A stretch of DNA of 58,371 nucleotides from the sequence record OZ035775.1; one strand, written 5' to 3'. This DNA is from Sashavirus BDX09P1. Shown piece after piece: positions 25,769 through 51,713 of the stretch (positions within the stretch are counted from its first letter, which is position 1; the number at the start of each line of letters is the position of its first letter). Both the position numbers and the translations under genes were made by a program. The notes beneath the pieces were generated by a model that was given only the letters and a program-made list of their open reading frames with translations, searched no databases and was not told the origin of the DNA.

Positions 25769-27226
25769 ATGGCTGAATCAATTTTTAAATGTTCGCAAAC
25801 ACCTGCGGCTGATGTAAACGCAACACGACTCAGTGTAGCAAAAGTCTGTGAACCTGTTTCTGGTACACCCTGGACGGTTCAACAACCGAATGAAATTAGT
25901 TCTTACAGTGCTGATATTACAAAGACTCAGCGTACACCGATCAGTACGGACCGATCTGCACGTAAAGGCACGGTAACTAACGTTGAAGTTGCACCGGGTT
26001 TTCAGACAGACCTGACACTTGATACATTCCGCTACTGGGGTGACGGATTCCTTTATAGTAAATGGGTCGGTGCTGGTGCAATTGATATTGATGTTACCAG
26101 TGTTGACGCTGACGCTTATAATGTTACTACTCTTGATGCGGCATTACCTGAAGGTGCTCTTGTTTATGCGACAGGTTTTACACTGGCTGCAAACAACGGT
26201 TTGAAAACTGTAGGCGCTGATAGTACCACTACTGCTATCAAAGTGTCAGGGCTTACTGCCGAAGCGTCACCGCCTGCTGAAGCTCGTTTGTATCTCGTGG
26301 GGTATGCTGCAGCGTCTGGTGACATCGCTGTTAACAGTAATGGTCAGTTGACGTCTACCACCCTGGATTTTTCCACACTGGGTTTAGTACCGGGCCAGTA
26401 TATTTATATTGACGGTCTAACACAGTCGGTTACCAGTAAAATGGCCCGTGTGACTATGGTTGGTGATCATGTTCTGACTCTCGCTAACAGTGAATTCACC
26501 ACTGAAGAAGGTACGGGTAAAACTGTACGTTTATTTGTTTCCAGTTTTGTTCGAAACGTTCCTGTTGATTCTGCAGAGTTCGTGAAAACTGAATACACGA
26601 TGGAAGCACGTTACAACACGACACCTGTTATTTATGAATACGCGCGTGCTGTAGCTGCAAACCAGATGACAATCAACGCACCATTGACTGAAAAAATGAC
26701 AATGGATCTGACGTTTGTAGCACAGGATTTATCAGCACCGTCAGAAACAGCGCTACCAGGTTCCGGGTATATTGAATTCGTGGCTAACGAAGCGTACAAC
26801 ACCGTAACGAACCTGAACCGTGTACGACTGACCGGGATTGATGATAGTGGCCTCAGTACGTTCCTGAAAGACGTTACTGTCACCGTGAATAACAATGTGT
26901 CAGGTGAAAACGTGCTGGGCGTGATGGGTGCTGCGTTTACCAATATTGGTAACCTGGAAATCACGATGGAAACTGAAACGGTGATGACGGACGGTGCTGT
27001 ACTGGCTGCGATCCGTAACAACGCAACAGTCAACTTCGAACTTGCCGGGGTAAACGGTGATGGTGCAATTGTGGTTAACATCCCCGCTATGACACTGGGT
27101 GACGGTTCTAAGAACCTTGCAACGGGCGAAAAAGTGAAAGTCACTGTTAGCGGTAACGCCCACGAAGAAGAGTCGATCGGTTTTATGATTGGATTCAGCT
27201 TGTTCCCGTACTTGCCTACAGCATGA
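25769..27226 (+). CDS. putative major tail protein
   Basis: 485 aa, Thr/Val/Ala-rich, directly before chaperone G/GT; terminator follows. Confidence 0.5.
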   Translation: MAESIFKCSQTPAADVNATRLSVAKVCEPVSGTPWTVQQPNEISSYSADITKTQRTPISTDRSARKGTVTNVEVAPGFQTDLTLDTFRYWGDGFLYSKWVGAGAIDIDVTSVDADAYNVTTLDAALPEGALVYATGFTLAANNGLKTVGADSTTTAIKVSGLTAEASPPAEARLYLVGYAAASGDIAVNSNGQLTSTTLDFSTLGLVPGQYIYIDGLTQSVTSKMARVTMVGDHVLTLANSEFTTEEGTGKTVRLFVSSFVRNVPVDSAEFVKTEYTMEARYNTTPVIYEYARAVAANQMTINAPLTEKMTMDLTFVAQDLSAPSETALPGSGYIEFVANEAYNTVTNLNRVRLTGIDDSGLSTFLKDVTVTVNNNVSGENVLGVMGAAFTNIGNLEITMETETVMTDGAVLAAIRNNATVNFELAGVNGDGAIVVNIPAMTLGDGSKNLATGEKVKVTVSGNAHEEESIGFMIGFSLFPYLPTA

Positions 27227-27246: not shown

Positions 27247-27269
27247 GCCCGGTGTTAACCGGGCTTTTT
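27247..27269 (+). terminator. intrinsic terminator
   Basis: GCCCGG-tgttaa-CCGGGC + TTTTT. Confidence 0.6.
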
Positions 27270-27331
27270 GTTGCGTAATTTGTACAGAACTATTACTATC
27301 TAATCGTCTACTACATAAAAGGTAAAAAACC

Positions 27332-27754
27332 ATGTCAAAGTTTGACCATCTGAAAAAAGCACTTTCTCCACTGGTGCTGAAGTCTTCTGCTGAACTGATT
27401 TTAAATGAAAATTTCAGTATCACCGTGTTGAACCTGAACACCGCTAACCAGGTATATAACGTAACAGTTGCGGACTATGTAAAACAGAACGGTGTGTTGT
27501 CTGAAAACTTCTTTGAAAAACTGTGGAATCAGGAATATACACCAGAAGGTGTTAAGTTCGTGGCTAACGTTCTTATGCTGGACTGGAAACTGATTGGTGA
27601 AGATGACAAACCGGAACCATTCAGTGTTGAAGAAGCTATTGAACTGTTAAGTGATGAACGTTTTGGTCAGGTGATCTACAGTCGTGTTATTCAGTTTGCA
27701 ATTAATTCCGCATTTTTCCAGGACGAATGGGAAAAACAGATTGAAAAAAACTGA
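27332..27754 (+). CDS. tail assembly chaperone (G-like)
   Basis: 140 aa acidic protein upstream of tape measure; slippery A_AAA_AAC at its 3' end. Confidence 0.55.
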   Translation: MSKFDHLKKALSPLVLKSSAELILNENFSITVLNLNTANQVYNVTVADYVKQNGVLSENFFEKLWNQEYTPEGVKFVANVLMLDWKLIGEDDKPEPFSVEEAIELLSDERFGQVIYSRVIQFAINSAFFQDEWEKQIEKN

Positions 27755-28050
27755 TCGACTTCCTCTTGTGGAACGATAAGACAGACGGGGACGACCTGGA
27801 CTGGGTTACACAAGGGGCGGCTGCACGTGGTATATCTGTTCCGGTTGTTGTACAGAAACGACCTAGATTGCGACCTGATGCTATATTTTTTTGGAATGCT
27901 TACGTGGATCTGATGGAAGCTGATTGGGTTGCTTGTGAGCGATATGCACGGGTGTATAACGTTGATGTACAATTCCTATGGAAATTATTGGTAGCGTTGC
28001 GGTCTGCACGTGTTGTCGAGATGAAGAAAAATAAACACAAGCCCGGTTAG
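27745..28050 (+). CDS. GT-like C-terminal extension reached by -1 frameshift
   Basis: -1 frame is open from 27745 and spans track ORF 27766-28050; heptamer A_AAA_AAC at 27745-27751 in the G frame. Confidence 0.5.
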   Translation, partial: KKLIDFLLWNDKTDGDDLDWVTQGAAARGISVPVVVQKRPRLRPDAIFFWNAYVDLMEADWVACERYARVYNVDVQFLWKLLVALRSARVVEMKKNKHKPG

Positions 28051-28063
28051 TTCCGGGCTTTTT
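28041..28063. terminator. hairpin terminator
   Basis: GCCCGG-ttagtt-CCGGGC + TTTTT; same hairpin sequence as near 781 and 1466. Confidence 0.55.
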
Positions 28064-28317
28064 CATTTATGTAGTCGAGGATTGCAGGAGAGTATTTAAA
28101 CCACTCTGTAGCACCGTCAAAACCTTTAAGACGCGCGTTAAGTTCGTGATAGACCTTGTGTACCTCTTGTTCCAGTTTATACGCGTCGGCGCCTTGTGGG
28201 AACGGATACGACACGAGTTTAACCACGGGGTGTGGAGTTCGTCGTTGTAGTTGTCGTAGTCGCTGTTTTAAGTCGTTTGTAATACCAACTTTAAGCAGAG
28301 TAGGACACTGTTTATCG

Positions 28318-28959
28318 TCAGAACACGTAGAGCGTTCCGTGTTCTGACGGGTTAAAACCTGTTTCAGCGCACTGGGGGCAACCTTGTTTCATTGAAGTGT
28401 GATTGTTCGGAGTTTGTTCAAACACACCGTGTTCTGAACAAATGATTTTTACAAGGGTGGAATTGTTAACATACTCCACCAACGAATAGTCGTAATGGTC
28501 CCCGTGAACTTCGTGAGCACGAGTAATGAATTCTTCGGCGGATGAACGTCTTTGTTCAGACAATTGTTCCCAAGCACATTGTAGGCAACCTGCTTTTTGC
28601 TGCAAGTGACTATATGGACGTTGTTCAAACACTCCATGTATCGGACAGATGATTTTCACAGGAGTACACCGATTAACATACTCCACCAACGAATAGTCGT
28701 AACGGTCCCCGTGAACTTCACGGGCGCGTGTAATAAACTCTTCTGTGGTTAAACGTTGTTGCTTAACTGCACATTGGGGACAACCTCTCCCGCGAACATG
28801 ATTATTAGGAATCTGTTCAAACACACCATGTTCAGGACAGGTGATCTTCACAGGAGTACACCAATTCACATACACCACTAGCGAGTAATCGTATTTGTGC
28901 CCATGAACTTCACGGGCACGTGTGATAAATTCTTCTGTGGTTAAACGTTTCCTACTCAT
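28318..28959 (-). CDS. triple-repeat Cys-containing protein
   Basis: Three ~68-aa repeats each with EEFITRAREVHGD+YDYSLVEYVN...VKIICPEHGVFEQ...GCPQC; no GIY-YIG, HNH or LAGLIDADG catalytic motif seen. Confidence 0.55.
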   Translation of the reverse strand: MSRKRLTTEEFITRAREVHGHKYDYSLVVYVNWCTPVKITCPEHGVFEQIPNNHVRGRGCPQCAVKQQRLTTEEFITRAREVHGDRYDYSLVEYVNRCTPVKIICPIHGVFEQRPYSHLQQKAGCLQCAWEQLSEQRRSSAEEFITRAHEVHGDHYDYSLVEYVNNSTLVKIICSEHGVFEQTPNNHTSMKQGCPQCAETGFNPSEHGTLYVF

Positions 28960-28960
28960 C

Positions 28961-29140
28961 TTATTTGTCGCTTTTTAACACAGCCCAGATTAACGCACCT
29001 AACCAACCGACGAATGTCCAACCCGCAAAGATGTTAAGTAAAATAATTGCTGTTTGTTGTTTATGTTTAATGTTAATCGCGATGAGTGCTGGGATCAGAT
29101 ATACAGCAGCGATTAAGAAAAGAATGATGAAACTAGCCAT
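28961..29140 (-). CDS. small membrane protein, superinfection-immunity-like (59 aa)
   Basis: MASFIILFLIAAVYLIPALIA...NIFAGWTFVGWLGALIWAV; GGAGGG RBS after P9; preferred over antisense track ORF 28965-29147. Confidence 0.45.
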   Translation of the reverse strand: MASFIILFLIAAVYLIPALIAINIKHKQQTAIILLNIFAGWTFVGWLGALIWAVLKSDK

Positions 29141-29170
29141 TTTGTAACCCTCCGTTGTTTTGTTGATTGT

Positions 29171-29212
29171 AGGTTACACACCATTGTGCAATCCGTCAAG
29201 AATTATTTTAAA
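29171..29212 (-). promoter_or_regulatory. sigma70-like promoter P9 (conserved motif copy)
   Basis: Minus strand TTTAAAATAATTC-TTGACG-17-TAACCT. Confidence 0.6.
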
Positions 29213-29274
29213 CATTTGTCGCTTTTTAGACCCGTGTTAAACTGTGTATATGCTTCGTGAAAAGGTTAACCACA

Positions 29275-31842
29275 ATGGCACAGTATCCGATTGATATAAA
29301 AATAGACACTGGTAATGCTGACAGAAATCTTAACAGTCTTAATAACCAGTTAGACCAAACAGCTAATTCTGCAAAATCTGCTGCACAGGCTGCAAACACT
29401 TTATCAAAAAGTGAACAGCAAGCTGCAAAATCTGCACAAGTAATGGCTTCAAATACTGGTAATGCTACATCATCTTTAAAGACGATGGCATCTGGCGTAA
29501 ATCTTGCAACAAACGCCGTTCGTGGTTTTATGGCAATAGGTGCGGTGTCTTCTGCTATTGAGTTAGGAAAAGCGTTTATTGTTGCGGGTGATGCAGCTAA
29601 TCAACTTGAAGCTCGTATTGCAAGATTGACCGGGAGTACATCATCAGCCGAACAAACATTTCAAACACTCGCGGATATTGCCTCTAAAACAGGTGGTGGT
29701 CTTGCTGATACTGAACGTTTATGGGAAACCTTATCATCATCATTAAAGGATAGCGGCGCAACAAACGACCAGATATTACGATTAACTGAAACACTTCAAA
29801 AAATAGGTCGTGTTGGTGGTTCATCTGCTGAAGAAATGTCTAACGCATTACGTCAGTTTGGTCAGTCAATTTCATCTGGTGTAGTTCGTGCAGAAGAATT
29901 TAACAGCATTGTTGAACAGATGCCAGAACTGGCAAGACAGATGGCTGCTGGTTTAGGTATTTCAATGGGTGAGTTACGTCAGCAAATGCTGAATGGTGAA
30001 CTTACAGCGGAACAAGCATTGAACGCTATCATTCGTCAAACGCAAAATGTTGATGAAGAATTTAGCAAATTGCCACGGTCTTTAGATCAGGCCACAAATT
30101 CGTTATCTGTATCGTTAGCCACGTTTGTTGCAAGCGTGAATGATGTGACTGGAGCATCAAATCTTGCTGTAGACGCTATTGATACACTTACATGTTTCAT
30201 CAATAAATTAGGCGATGATTCAACAACAACTGCTGATAAATTGTGGTCAATAGCTGGCGTAATATCTAAGTTACAACCTGGTGCTATCGGAGCATCCCTT
30301 GCCGATCTGGTCTGGTCAAATGATGATGTAAATAATGCAAAAGCGTACAATGACCAGGTTGACAGATTTGTTAAAGCATCTGCTGCTGGATACGAACAAG
30401 CTAAAAAAAACCGTGATGCTACAAAACCTATTTCTATAAAAGGGACAAATGCATCAGACGCGGAAGCACAAAAACAGATTAAAAACCTGAAAGAGCAGAT
30501 CACCTACACCCAGGCGCTTGCTGACGGTAATTATGAACTGGCAGCAAGTCAGAAACTGGGTAACAAAGCAACAAAGGAACAGATTGCAGACTACGCCGCG
30601 TTGTTGAAGCAACAGGCAGAATATAAAGAAAATCAAAAGAACCAGAAGAAATCAGCGAGTGCTGAAGCATCTGCGGCTAAACGTGCACAGAAAGAACTGG
30701 AACGTAATCAGGCTGCTAACCAGAAATACCTGAAAACGCTTCAGGATAAAATCAATGCTGGTAATTATGATGTTCAGTTAGCACGCGAACAGGTTCAGAT
30801 TGCTTTAACACAGGGGTCGTCTGTTGAACAACTTACAGCAACATATCAGAAAGAATATCAGGTACGTCAACAGTTAACGCTGGCATCACAACAAGCAGAA
30901 GCACAGTCACGATTGAATAAAGACGCGACTGATGCTGAACGTGCCGCTGTTGATGCACATGTGGCTGCATTGCAACGTCAACAGCAGGCGCAACAGTTAG
31001 CTGGTCAGGTTTCACAGGTACAAACCGATGTACAGGGTGAGTTAAACCCGTATCAATCACAGGTTGATCAGGTTAATCAGCAGGAAGCACAACGTCTTAC
31101 TGTCATACAACAAGCCCGTGAACAAGATTTAATCAACGAGCAACAATACCAAGATATGAAAACGCAGATTCAACAGGCTGGGGAACAAGCCCGTACGAAT
31201 CTTGCAAATGCTAACTACAGCTTGTTGCTACAATCCAGTGCTGATTTTTTGGGTCAAATGGCTGCTGGTCTGGCACAATCTAAAGGTGAGCAATCAAACG
31301 CGTATAAAGCGATGTTTGCACTCTCTAAAGCCTTTAGTATTGCACAGGCAAGCATTAACCTGTGGACAGCAGTTAGCCAGGCTATGGCGTTGCCGTTCCC
31401 GGCGAATATTCCGTTCATTGCACAGGCTTTGTCATATGGAACAAGCGTGTTAGGTAACATTCAGTCTGTGGCTGCAACAGGTTTTGCAACGGGTGGTTAT
31501 GTTAAAGGTCCGGGTACAGGTCAGAGTGATAGTATAAACGCACGTTTGAGTAATGGTGAGTTTGTCAGTACCAAACAGGCTACCAGTCGTTATCGTAGCA
31601 CTCTGGAAGCAATGAATCGTGGCACATATACACCAGGATCTGAAGGTGGTTCGTCACCTAATATTCAGGTTCATAACTACGGTGGTGAACGTGTTCAGGT
31701 GAAACAAGGATTAACACGAGATGACGTAGTGCTTATCATAGGTGAAGAATTCCCACGACAATCAGCGGCACAATGGAATGACCCGTACAGTCAGACAAAT
31801 AAAGCGTTCAGGTCTAACTATGATGCGAACAGGAAAATATAA
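29275..31842 (+). CDS. tail tape measure protein
   Basis: ~855 aa, Ala/Gln-rich helical repeats, position after G/GT. Confidence 0.8.
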   Translation: MAQYPIDIKIDTGNADRNLNSLNNQLDQTANSAKSAAQAANTLSKSEQQAAKSAQVMASNTGNATSSLKTMASGVNLATNAVRGFMAIGAVSSAIELGKAFIVAGDAANQLEARIARLTGSTSSAEQTFQTLADIASKTGGGLADTERLWETLSSSLKDSGATNDQILRLTETLQKIGRVGGSSAEEMSNALRQFGQSISSGVVRAEEFNSIVEQMPELARQMAAGLGISMGELRQQMLNGELTAEQALNAIIRQTQNVDEEFSKLPRSLDQATNSLSVSLATFVASVNDVTGASNLAVDAIDTLTCFINKLGDDSTTTADKLWSIAGVISKLQPGAIGASLADLVWSNDDVNNAKAYNDQVDRFVKASAAGYEQAKKNRDATKPISIKGTNASDAEAQKQIKNLKEQITYTQALADGNYELAASQKLGNKATKEQIADYAALLKQQAEYKENQKNQKKSASAEASAAKRAQKELERNQAANQKYLKTLQDKINAGNYDVQLAREQVQIALTQGSSVEQLTATYQKEYQVRQQLTLASQQAEAQSRLNKDATDAERAAVDAHVAALQRQQQAQQLAGQVSQVQTDVQGELNPYQSQVDQVNQQEAQRLTVIQQAREQDLINEQQYQDMKTQIQQAGEQARTNLANANYSLLLQSSADFLGQMAAGLAQSKGEQSNAYKAMFALSKAFSIAQASINLWTAVSQAMALPFPANIPFIAQALSYGTSVLGNIQSVAATGFATGGYVKGPGTGQSDSINARLSNGEFVSTKQATSRYRSTLEAMNRGTYTPGSEGGSSPNIQVHNYGGERVQVKQGLTRDDVVLIIGEEFPRQSAAQWNDPYSQTNKAFRSNYDANRKI

Positions 31843-49358: not shown

Positions 49359-51713
49359 ATGAAAGGGTTACTGAACCGTAAACAGTGGGTCATGTGGCGG
49401 CTTGAGACAGTCGCCGATCGTCCAAAACCAACGAAAGTACCATACAGCCCGGTACACGGTTATAAAGCCAGTACCACTAACCCTAACGACTGGTCTGACT
49501 ATCACACCGCGTTGGGTATGGCGCAAATGTACGGTATGTCTGGTGTTGGTTTCGTATTCACAGAAAATGATCCTTATTTCTTTATTGATGTTGATAACTG
49601 TCTGGTAGATCAGGCAACAGCTACGTGGTCACCACTAGCGCATGAATTCGTAAACCGTTTTCCAAATGCTTACACTGAAGTCAGTCAGTCAGGAACAGGT
49701 TTGCATATTATCTGTGCTTATACCAGCATACCGGAAGGTTTTAACAGTCTGAACGACCAGAAAACCGGGCTGGAAATGTACTGGCGTGATCGTTTCGTCG
49801 CGATGACGCTCACGGGTAATGGTGATGTTGATATTGATTATACCCAGGGCATTCATGATTCTATTGCCCGGTATGGTCGCATCCGTTCAGACCGTTCCGC
49901 ACGCTGGACAACAGCACCCTGTGATGACTGGTCAGGCCCGGCAGACGATGATGAACTGATTAAAATGGCGTTAAATTCGTCCAGTGCTGCTTCAGTATTT
50001 GGTAATAAAGCGTCATTTGCAGATCTGTGGAATGCAAACGTTGAACGCCTGTCTGTGTCATATCCCAGCGACCAGGGAAAAGACTACAATGCATCTGCCG
50101 CTGATGCTGCCCTGTGCTCACACCTTGCGTTCTGGACCGGGAAAGATTGCGAACGTATTGAACGTCTATTTAACCGTTCCGGACTGGTTCGTGGTAAATG
50201 GACAGATCGTCAGGATTACCGTGAAAACACGATTCTGGGCGCTGTGGAACGTTGTGATACGGTTTATCGTAGTCAACCGACGCTGACACCAGAACTGATG
50301 AAAGCAGTCACACCAGCGCCTACCGTCGTTCCTAATGGTGGAACACCTGCGTACATGAGTGTGAAACCCGGTGAAGGTGCATATGGTTCAAACCACACGG
50401 TTAACGCATCCACGTTCGTTAATAACTATTATCCGAACAACACTTTGATTTTCGTCCAGCAACAGCCGTACCGGTTCAACGGTCGCGTGTGGGAACGTGT
50501 GAGTGAAGATGAACTGAAACATCAGATATCTATGGCAATGCTCGCCAGCGAACCAAAAGCTGACGTGATCAATGGTACGTACAAGGTTTTGTCGTATTTA
50601 TTCACACGCGCTGATCGTGAGCTTGGAACATGGCCCGGCGTTGATGTATCACACTATATTGTTTGTCAGAATGGGATACTGGATGTACATACGGGTAAAT
50701 GTGATGCACATAACCCGGACTTCTTTACGACCAGTATTTTACCGTATAGCTACGATCCGTTTGCCCGTGCGCCAGCATTTGAACAGTTTCTTAATACAAC
50801 TCTGGAAGGTGATCAGGAACGTATTGCACTGTTGCAGGAATGGCTGGGTTACATGCTTGTCAACTCGTATGACTATCAGAAAGCGATGCTGTTGATTGGT
50901 GCGCCACGTTCCGGTAAAGGTACGATTGGTCGAATCATTCAGGCACTAGTAGGTGATGAAGCGTATGCAGGGATCACACTGGAGGGTTTAGCCAGTGATG
51001 CGGTACTTGAAACTGTGCTGGATAAATCTGTACTGTTTATTGGTGATGCTCACAGTGTGTCCGGGCCTGATCGCAACCGAATTCTGGACCGTTTCAAATC
51101 TATTACAGGTTGTGATGCGATTCCGGTTAATCGTAAGTATAAAGGTGCATGGAACGGTCGTTTACCGGGACGTATGACACTGGCTGCTAACAACATCCCG
51201 GCATTTGCTGATGATTCAGGTGCAATGGCTAACCGTTTGCTGATCCTACCATTCAACATTTCGTTCCTGGGTCGTGAAGATACCACTCTGGAAGCACGAC
51301 TGATGAAAGAACTACCGGGGATCTGTAACTGGGCGATTGAAGGTTTGCAACGGTTACGTGCAAACGGACGGTTTACTGAACCAAAAGCAAGTCTGGAAGA
51401 ACGTCAGGAAATTATGGATCAACAATCACCACTTAGAAGTTTTATCAGAGATTGTTGCGAATTGGTATCTGATGGTGAGGTGCATACTGAAGAACTCTAT
51501 GGTCGTTATCGTCTCTGGAAAACACAGGAAGGTGGTCCAGCAATGACTAAAACTGCATTTAGTCGGGCATTTAAATCCACCCTTCGTGGTAAAGTGAAAA
51601 AAGACGTTGTTAATATAAATAACGTACGATTAAACGGTTTCAGGGGTATTCGTCTTCTCCCTTTTCAGTCAACAGCTAATGTAGTGCCTTTCCCACCTGC
51701 GAGTAACGGTTAG
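49359..51713 (+). CDS. primase / D5-like replicative NTPase
   Basis: 784 aa; Walker A GAPRSGKGT in C-terminal half, N-terminal primase-polymerase-sized domain. Confidence 0.75.
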   Translation: MKGLLNRKQWVMWRLETVADRPKPTKVPYSPVHGYKASTTNPNDWSDYHTALGMAQMYGMSGVGFVFTENDPYFFIDVDNCLVDQATATWSPLAHEFVNRFPNAYTEVSQSGTGLHIICAYTSIPEGFNSLNDQKTGLEMYWRDRFVAMTLTGNGDVDIDYTQGIHDSIARYGRIRSDRSARWTTAPCDDWSGPADDDELIKMALNSSSAASVFGNKASFADLWNANVERLSVSYPSDQGKDYNASAADAALCSHLAFWTGKDCERIERLFNRSGLVRGKWTDRQDYRENTILGAVERCDTVYRSQPTLTPELMKAVTPAPTVVPNGGTPAYMSVKPGEGAYGSNHTVNASTFVNNYYPNNTLIFVQQQPYRFNGRVWERVSEDELKHQISMAMLASEPKADVINGTYKVLSYLFTRADRELGTWPGVDVSHYIVCQNGILDVHTGKCDAHNPDFFTTSILPYSYDPFARAPAFEQFLNTTLEGDQERIALLQEWLGYMLVNSYDYQKAMLLIGAPRSGKGTIGRIIQALVGDEAYAGITLEGLASDAVLETVLDKSVLFIGDAHSVSGPDRNRILDRFKSITGCDAIPVNRKYKGAWNGRLPGRMTLAANNIPAFADDSGAMANRLLILPFNISFLGREDTTLEARLMKELPGICNWAIEGLQRLRANGRFTEPKASLEERQEIMDQQSPLRSFIRDCCELVSDGEVHTEELYGRYRLWKTQEGGPAMTKTAFSRAFKSTLRGKVKKDVVNINNVRLNGFRGIRLLPFQSTANVVPFPPASNG

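What the first reader, a model, noticed from the sequence alone, without database searches (positions are those of the whole stretch)
27741..27766. Candidate programmed -1 frameshift joining G and GT tail chaperones
The canonical slippery heptamer A_AAA_AAC sits in the zero frame just before the G stop codon. The -1 frame is open from exactly this point for ~100 codons, to 28050. This mirrors the conserved G/GT recoding of long-tailed phages.
Basis: partly seen in the sequence, partly recalled or inferred. Interest (0 to 1): 0.4.

Follow-up and report, generated by a model that had tools for sequence, protein, structure and literature searches.

The report
Phage tail chaperone G/GT frameshift site

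Summary
ORF G (27332-27754, 140 aa) ends GA[A AAA AAC] TGA. The heptamer A_AAA_AAC (27745-27751) is in the zero frame. The -1 frame is closed by a TGA at 27742-27744 and then open to the TAG at 28048-28050, 99 codons. A -1 shift can therefore only happen on the heptamer. The window is a Sashavirus/9NA-like siphophage (98% identical to E. coli phage PJ16, 95% to Salmonella phage Sasha). The gene pair lies between the tail tube gene and the tape measure gene. GenBank already annotates the same site as a frameshift product in Sasha (gp44/gp45) and 9NA (gp48/gp49). In 11 diverged relatives (Salmonella, Klebsiella, Morganella, Proteus, Vibrio; G identity down to about 27%) AAAAAACT is the longest invariant stretch of the junction alignment. 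The preceding codon changes amino acid (GAA/ACA/GTA/ATA) but always ends in A. The TTG at 27766 has no ribosome binding site and is CTG or CAG in relatives; 9NA has no start codon in the first 45 T codons. No conserved downstream RNA structure exists. No experiment on this lineage was found. Verdict: real, canonical lambda-type G/GT recoding, already known, low interest.

The parts
25769..27226 (+). Major tail tube protein gene (485 aa), the upstream neighbour that defines the synteny.
   Evidence: Pfam PF18906 Phage_tube_2, E 7e-18. Annotated 'major tail tube protein' in PJ16 and Sasha.
27247..27272 (+). Intrinsic-terminator-like hairpin plus T run, between the tail tube gene and G.
   Evidence: Pattern scan: 7-pair stem with 6 G-C pairs, then TTTTTGTT. 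A terminator is annotated at the same place in Sasha. Function is inferred.
27319..27323 (+). Weak Shine-Dalgarno sequence (AAGGT) of gene G, 8 nt before the ATG.
   Evidence: Sequence. Anti-SD duplex energy -3.9 kcal/mol.
27332..27754 (+). Gene G: tail assembly chaperone, 140 aa, 16.2 kDa. This is the product of normal decoding.
   Evidence: ORF. phrog_8233 'tail assembly chaperone' E 3e-48 and phrog_313 E 1e-17. 93 phage records hold homologues. The AF2 model (pLDDT 80.6) hits phage tail assembly chaperones in BFVD.
27729..27732 (+). SD-like GGGA about 12 nt 5' of the heptamer (GGGAG or GGGAGG in relatives). It is a possible weak 5' stimulator, but this is only a hint.
   Evidence: -4.2 kcal/mol here, and 24% of background coding windows are as good. 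It is -7.3 to -10.2 kcal/mol in 9NA, Klebsiella and Morganella phages at spacing 9-11 nt. It overlaps the conserved Trp-Glu codons, so it may reflect protein constraint only.
27742..27744 (+). TGA in the -1 frame, which closes that frame immediately 5' of the heptamer.
   Evidence: the -1 frame is open from 27745.
27745..27751 (+). Slippery heptamer A_AAA_AAC, the -1 shift site (Lys-139 and Asn-140 codons).
   Evidence: Sequence. Invariant in 11 diverged loci together with the following T.
27752..27754 (+). G stop codon TGA, directly 3' of the heptamer.
   Evidence: The stop is directly adjacent in Sasha, 9NA and the Klebsiella phages, and one codon further on in the Morganella, Proteus and Vibrio phages.
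27751..28050 (+). T segment: 99 codons in the -1 frame (LIDFLLWNDKTDGDDLDW...) plus the TAG stop. It is translated only as the C-terminal part of GT. GT = join(27332..27751, 27751..28050), 239 aa, 27.7 kDa.
   Evidence: tblastn finds the T segment in 94 phage records, and in the listed records that one search also lists the match begins at the very base where the G match ends. phrog_8233 positions 141-250, E 1.5e-28. Weak PF23812 Phage_TAC_18 hit, E 0.0015, below the Pfam cut-off.
28039..28070 (.). Terminator-like hairpin scored on both strands. The T stop codon lies in its loop.
   Evidence: 8-pair stem with 6 G-C pairs on both strands. A terminator is annotated at the same place in Sasha.
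29275..31842 (+). Tape measure protein gene, the presumed binding partner of G. The ORF opens at GTG 29257; the likely start is ATG 29275, giving 855 aa.
   Evidence: PF20155 TMP_3, E 7e-53. Alignment to the Sasha TMP starts at MAQYPIDIKID.

Best explanation
Gene G (27332-27754) encodes a 140-aa tail assembly chaperone. Most ribosomes stop at TGA 27752. A minority slip back one base on A_AAA_AAC (27745-27751): the P-site tRNA-Lys moves from AAA to AAA and the A-site tRNA-Asn from AAC to AAA. These ribosomes then read CTG ATC GAC... in the -1 frame to TAG 28048. The result is a 239-aa GT fusion (...QIEKN-LIDFLLWNDK...). By analogy with lambda, G and the G part of GT coat the tape measure protein, and the T part recruits the tail tube protein. 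The low shift rate fixes a high G:GT ratio, and neither protein ends up in the virion. The frame geometry, synteny, homology and conservation of the site are shown here. That slippage occurs, its rate and the protein interactions are inferred. The site seems to work without a downstream RNA structure. The adjacent stop codon and a weak upstream SD-like GGGA are possible but unproven modulators.
Confidence: 0.93

Rival explanations
1. T is made as a separate protein, either by initiation at TTG 27766 or by termination-reinitiation after the G stop. There would be no frameshift and no fusion.
For: A TTG lies 12 nt after the G stop. Several records annotate T as a separate ORF (Proteus Isfahan and the Vibrio phages). 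In the Vibrio clade an ATG at T codon 9 has a good SD, GAGGTG at -7.1 kcal/mol.
Against: TTG 27766 has no SD (+0.4 kcal/mol). The aligned codon is CTG in 9NA and CAG in the Klebsiella phages. 9NA has no start codon in the first 45 T codons, and the Klebsiella and Morganella phages have none before codon 39-40, although the conserved motif is at codon 14. This reading does not explain why the heptamer is invariant at synonymous sites, nor why the G and T frames meet with the same one-base overlap in the records checked.
Confidence: 0.03
2. The fusion arises by transcriptional slippage. RNA polymerase adds one A in the A7 run (27744-27750), and normal translation of that mRNA gives ...IEKK-LIDF...
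For: The window has 7 consecutive A. Inserting one base in the mRNA puts the T frame in phase. Productive transcriptional slippage is known in bacteria (PMC5009743).
Against: The review cites runs of 9 A or T as the known slippage-prone tracts in bacteria (PMC5009743). The Klebsiella, Morganella, Proteus and Vibrio relatives have only A6, which is exactly the heptamer and nothing more. The conserved feature is the phased X_XXY_YYZ with C at position 7, which matters to tRNA re-pairing and not to the polymerase.
Confidence: 0.03
3. The feature is an artefact or a chance ORF: either a homopolymer sequencing error splits one continuous gene, or the -1 ORF is non-coding.
For: Homopolymer runs are prone to indel errors.
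Against: The same stop and the same frame offset occur in all 12 sequences read base by base (the window and 11 loci fetched from records of different laboratories and hosts), and the G and T match coordinates abut in the same way in the listed tblastn records. The T frame is conserved as protein down to 33% identity.
Confidence: 0.01

Closest known systems
Salmonella phage vB_SenS_Sasha gp44/gp45 and Salmonella phage 9NA gp48/gp49 (annotated tail assembly chaperone and its -1 frameshift product)
   Same: These are orthologous genes. G is 98.6% (Sasha) and 87.8% (9NA) identical, and T is 90.9% and 80.5% identical. The heptamer A_AAA_AAC is the same, as is the position between the tail tube and tape measure genes. 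The stop codon follows the heptamer directly in both.
   Different: In the window a 1.16-kb reverse-strand insert (a superinfection immunity gene and a split endonuclease gene) separates T from the tape measure gene. The tape measure protein is 855 aa here and 971 aa there. The T tail is 99 codons, as in Sasha, against 90 in 9NA.
Phage lambda G/GT (Levin, Hendrix and Casjens 1993; Xu, Hendrix and Duda 2004, 2013, 2014, as cited in PMC5009743)
   Same: A low-level -1 frameshift near the 3' end of G yields GT. The genes lie between the major tail gene and the tape measure gene. The product sizes are similar. No strong RNA structure is evident (and own knowledge).
   Different: The lambda shift site is G_GGA_AAG (own knowledge) and here it is A_AAA_AAC. 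No sequence similarity was detectable with these tools. Lambda has direct genetic and biochemical proof, and this lineage has none.
E. coli dnaX gamma/tau -1 frameshift
   Same: It is a -1 tandem slip on an A-rich heptamer in an enterobacterial host. A possible SD-like element lies about 10 nt upstream (the spacing rule is own knowledge).
   Different: dnaX uses A_AAA_AAG, which is much more slippery in E. coli than A_AAA_AAC (PMC5009743), plus a strong downstream hairpin. It shifts about half of the ribosomes to make a shorter product. Here no hairpin exists, the SD-like element is weak, and the shift makes a longer product.
HK97 tail assembly chaperone (PDB 2ob9)

Membership tests
Lambda-type G/GT tail assembly chaperone recoding (Xu, Hendrix and Duda 2004 criteria) | Two ORFs lie between the major tail (tube) gene and the tape measure gene, on the same strand. 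| tested here: met
   The order is tube 25769-27226 (PF18906), G 27332-27754, T to 28050, tape measure 29257/29275-31842 (PF20155). A 1.16-kb reverse-strand insert lies between T and the tape measure gene here. In Sasha and 9NA the two are adjacent.
Lambda-type G/GT tail assembly chaperone recoding (Xu, Hendrix and Duda 2004 criteria) | The second ORF is in the -1 frame (or +1 in some phages) and overlaps the 3' end of the first. | tested here: met
   The -1 frame is open over 27745-28050. It overlaps G by the heptamer and the stop codon only.
Lambda-type G/GT tail assembly chaperone recoding (Xu, Hendrix and Duda 2004 criteria) | A slippery sequence of the form X_XXY_YYZ lies in the zero-frame phase inside the overlap. 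| tested here: met
   A_AAA_AAC at 27745-27751. Invariant in 11 diverged relatives.
Lambda-type G/GT tail assembly chaperone recoding (Xu, Hendrix and Duda 2004 criteria) | The downstream ORF has no translation start of its own. | tested here: met
   TTG 27766 has no SD and is not conserved (CTG or CAG in relatives). 9NA has no start codon in 45 codons. Caveat: the Vibrio relatives do have an ATG with an SD at T codon 9.
Lambda-type G/GT tail assembly chaperone recoding (Xu, Hendrix and Duda 2004 criteria) | A GT fusion protein is actually made, at a few per cent of G. | not testable with these tools
   This needs mass spectrometry, western blotting or a reporter assay. No publication on this lineage was found.
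Lambda-type G/GT tail assembly chaperone recoding (Xu, Hendrix and Duda 2004 criteria) | G binds the tape measure protein, T binds the tail tube protein, both are needed for tail assembly, and both are absent from virions. | not testable with these tools
   Inferred from lambda (PMC5009743).
Phage tail assembly chaperone protein family (homology or fold of G) | Sequence or profile similarity to proteins classed as tail assembly chaperones. | tested here: met
   phrog_8233 E 3e-48 and phrog_313 E 1e-17, both 'tail assembly chaperone'. These names are annotations and not tested functions. The local Pfam copy gives nothing for G and a sub-threshold PF23812 hit for T. NCBIfam and PDB sequences give nothing. 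The database relatives carry PF27119.1, which is not in the local Pfam copy.
Phage tail assembly chaperone protein family (homology or fold of G) | Fold similarity to an experimentally solved tail assembly chaperone. | tested here: inconclusive

The most novel reading that the evidence does not exclude
In this lineage the site is tuned by two unconventional elements instead of a downstream RNA structure. One is an internal SD-like GGGA(G)(G) at dnaX-like spacing, 9-12 nt 5' of the heptamer. The other, in the enteric clade, is the stop codon directly 3' of the heptamer. The Vibrio branch has additionally acquired an independent start for T (an ATG with GAGGTG), so it could make three products: G, GT and free T. 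That would be a variation on G/GT stoichiometry control and not a new kind of system.
Probability: 0.15. Interest if true: 0.3.

Novelty: already known. Interest (0 to 1): 0.1.

Why it matters
The value is mainly in annotation. The nearest relative, PJ16 (98% identical), and several Klebsiella, Morganella and Vibrio phage records lack the GT product or call T a separate 'hypothetical protein'. Gene callers leave the 239-aa protein out: the large protein database held only G-length entries. Correct annotation matters for phage engineering, because any recoding or codon optimisation of the last three G codons would abolish GT and probably tail assembly. It adds nothing new to the biology of recoding.

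Tried and rejected
1. Downstream stimulatory hairpin or pseudoknot. Folding 126 nt and 66 nt after the heptamer gives z -0.54 and -1.31. Seven relatives folded singly give z from -1.32 to +0.84. RNAalifold on 11 sequences gives -1.3 kcal/mol, 5 pairs and no compensatory change. Rejected.

2. Upstream SD-like stimulator. It is present at plausible spacing in 8 of 11 loci. In the window it is weak (24% of background windows are as good), and it is confounded with the conserved Trp-Glu codons. Kept only as a hint.

3. Other frameshift candidates in the window. The only other in-frame heptamer with a long -1 extension (GGGAAAG at 50139) lies in a shadow ORF inside the 784-aa gene 49359-51713. Rejected.

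4. Sequence matches of G or GT to the local Pfam copy (for G), NCBIfam and PDB sequences: none.

5. The large protein database search with the fused GT returned only 140-aa G proteins. It gave an alignment for structure prediction but no independent record of the fusion.

6. Literature searches for experimental work on the 9NA or Sasha G/GT pair: nothing relevant.

Full report
**Observation.** The + strand ORF 27332-27754 encodes a 140-aa protein ending ...DEWEKQIEKN*.
- Its last codons are ATT GAA AAA AAC TGA. The heptamer A_AAA_AAC lies at 27745-27751 in the X_XXY_YYZ phase, and the stop follows directly at 27752-27754.
- In the -1 frame a TGA sits at 27742-27744. From 27745 that frame is open to the TAG at 28048-28050, which is 99 codons counted from CTG 27751.
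- The only place where a -1 shift can join the two frames is therefore the heptamer itself.
- XXXYYYZ heptamers occur at about 0.004 per position in this window (237 on the + strand).
- Among 83 ORFs of at least 100 aa, only this one and a shadow ORF inside a 784-aa gene combine an in-frame heptamer with a long -1 extension.

**What the window is.**
- The region is 98% identical to Escherichia phage vB_EcoS_PJ16, about 95% to Sashavirus members (Sasha, Sergei, Solent, Bas82) and 80.6% to Salmonella phage 9NA.
- Upstream lies the major tail tube gene (25769-27226, PF18906), followed by a terminator-like hairpin. Downstream lies the tape measure gene (ORF from 29257, likely start ATG 29275, PF20155).
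- G matches phrog_8233 'tail assembly chaperone' at profile positions 5-140 (E 3e-48). The -1 frame peptide matches positions 141-250 of the same profile (E 1.5e-28). The two halves are thus colinear parts of one protein family.

**Already annotated.** GenBank records annotate the orthologous pair as a chaperone plus its frameshift product. These are Sasha gp44/gp45 ('frameshift product', joined CDS) and 9NA gp48/gp49 ('translated with -1 frameshift'). The 231-aa 9NA GT found in BFVD equals 141 G codons plus the 90 -1 frame codons that follow this heptamer. PJ16, the closest relative, annotates only G.

**Comparative test.**
- tblastn with G finds 93 phage records and with T finds 94. The hosts are Salmonella, Escherichia, Klebsiella, Morganella, Proteus and many Vibrio.
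- In the listed records that appear in both tables, the T match begins at the very base where the G match ends. The one-base-back geometry is therefore conserved even where G is only about 27% and T about 33-36% identical.
- I read the junction in 11 loci. All have A_AAA_AAC in phase. AAAAAACT is the longest invariant run in the junction alignment.
- The codon before it is GAA, ACA, GTA or ATA, four different amino acids, but it always ends in A. The Lys and Asn codons are never AAG or AAT. This is nucleotide-level constraint on a slippery site, not protein constraint.
- The distance from the heptamer to the conserved T motif D-x-L-[DE]-W is 14 codons in every locus.

**Rival: independent initiation.**
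- TTG 27766 has no Shine-Dalgarno complementarity (+0.4 kcal/mol). The aligned codon is CTG in 9NA and CAG in the Klebsiella phages.
- 9NA has no ATG, GTG or TTG in the first 45 T codons. The Klebsiella and Morganella phages have none before codon 39-40.
- This rival fails for the enteric clade. It remains possible only as an additional route in the Vibrio clade, where an ATG at T codon 9 is preceded by GAGGTG.

**Rival: transcriptional slippage.**
- The window has an A7 run, but most relatives have only A6.
- The review of recoding cites runs of 9 A or T as the known slippage-prone tracts in bacteria (PMC5009743).
- The conserved C at heptamer position 7 and the conserved phase point to tRNA re-pairing.
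- The two mechanisms predict different junction peptides: NLIDFLLWNDK for ribosomal slippage, and LIDFLLWNDK after Lys-Lys for transcriptional slippage.

**Stimulators.**
- No downstream structure was found. The 126-nt and 66-nt folds are unremarkable (z -0.54 and -1.31).
- Relatives fold no better than shuffled sequences. The alignment fold is -1.3 kcal/mol with no compensatory pairs.
- An SD-like GGGA (27729-27732; GGGAG or GGGAGG in relatives) lies 9-12 nt upstream, the spacing known from dnaX (own knowledge).
- It is weak here, since 24% of background windows are as good, and it coincides with the conserved Trp-Glu codons. I treat it as a hint only.
- In E. coli A_AAA_AAC is much less shift-prone than A_AAA_AAG (PMC5009743). 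That fits a low GT:G ratio like the roughly 1:30 of lambda.

**Protein evidence.**
- G has no hit in the local Pfam copy, in NCBIfam or in PDB sequences. Database relatives carry PF27119.1, which is absent from the local copy.
- An AF2 model built on 20 homologues (pLDDT 80.6, pTM 0.76) hits many phage 'tail assembly chaperone' or 'pre-tape measure chaperone' models in BFVD (E about 1e-3, probability 0.97 or more).

**Mechanism.**
- Shown here: the frame geometry, synteny, homology, site conservation and absence of an own start codon.
- Inferred from lambda (PMC5009743): a few per cent of ribosomes slip -1 on A_AAA_AAC and produce the 239-aa, 27.7-kDa GT alongside the 16.2-kDa G. The G domains coat the tape measure protein, the T domain recruits tube subunits, and both proteins leave the finished tail.

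**Verdict.** This is a real, canonical and already annotated G/GT -1 programmed frameshift. Novelty: already known. Interest: low (0.1). Confidence that the site is a functional -1 frameshift site: 0.93. The remainder is mostly the lack of any direct protein evidence in this lineage.

Noticed in passing
window 28070-29233 (- strand genes 28047-28226, 28318-28959, 28961-29140): A 1.16-kb reverse-strand insert separates T from the tape measure gene. It is absent from Sasha and 9NA, where the tape measure gene follows T directly. It carries a superinfection immunity gene (PF14373) and a homing-endonuclease-like gene (3x DUF723 plus T5orf172; phrog_681). That gene is split by a frameshift at the start of the T5orf172 domain (...GTLYVF* in one frame...KVGITNDLKQRL... 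in another), so it is probably a decaying mobile gene. Sasha instead carries a reverse-strand ORF (gp43) between the tube gene and G. Mobile genes thus land on either side of the G/GT cassette but not inside it.
   Followed up: partly
window 29257-31842: The tape measure protein is about 855 aa (likely start ATG 29275, MAQYPIDIKID...) against 971 aa in Sasha and 9NA. It is only 63% identical over the shared part. If tail length scales with tape measure length, this phage should have a noticeably shorter tail than Sasha.
   Followed up: partly
L008-L011 (Vibrio phages 13VV501A, K453, 1.033.O, 1.237.A), T-frame codon 9: The Vibrio relatives keep the A_AAA_AAC heptamer but also have an ATG with a good SD (GAGGTG, -7.1 kcal/mol) at T codon 9. 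T is annotated there as a separate 'tail chaperonin' or 'coil containing protein'. They might make free T as well as GT.
   Followed up: no
window 28039-28060: The T stop codon TAG (28048-28050) lies in the loop of a terminator-like hairpin that scores on both strands. The hairpin sits between the convergent T gene and the reverse-strand endonuclease fragment.
   Followed up: no
window 50139 (ORF 49984-50286, + strand): A lambda-like heptamer G_GGA_AAG lies in phase in a 100-aa ORF with a long -1 extension. The ORF is a shadow ORF inside the 784-aa gene 49359-51713, so it is not a recoding candidate.
   Followed up: yes
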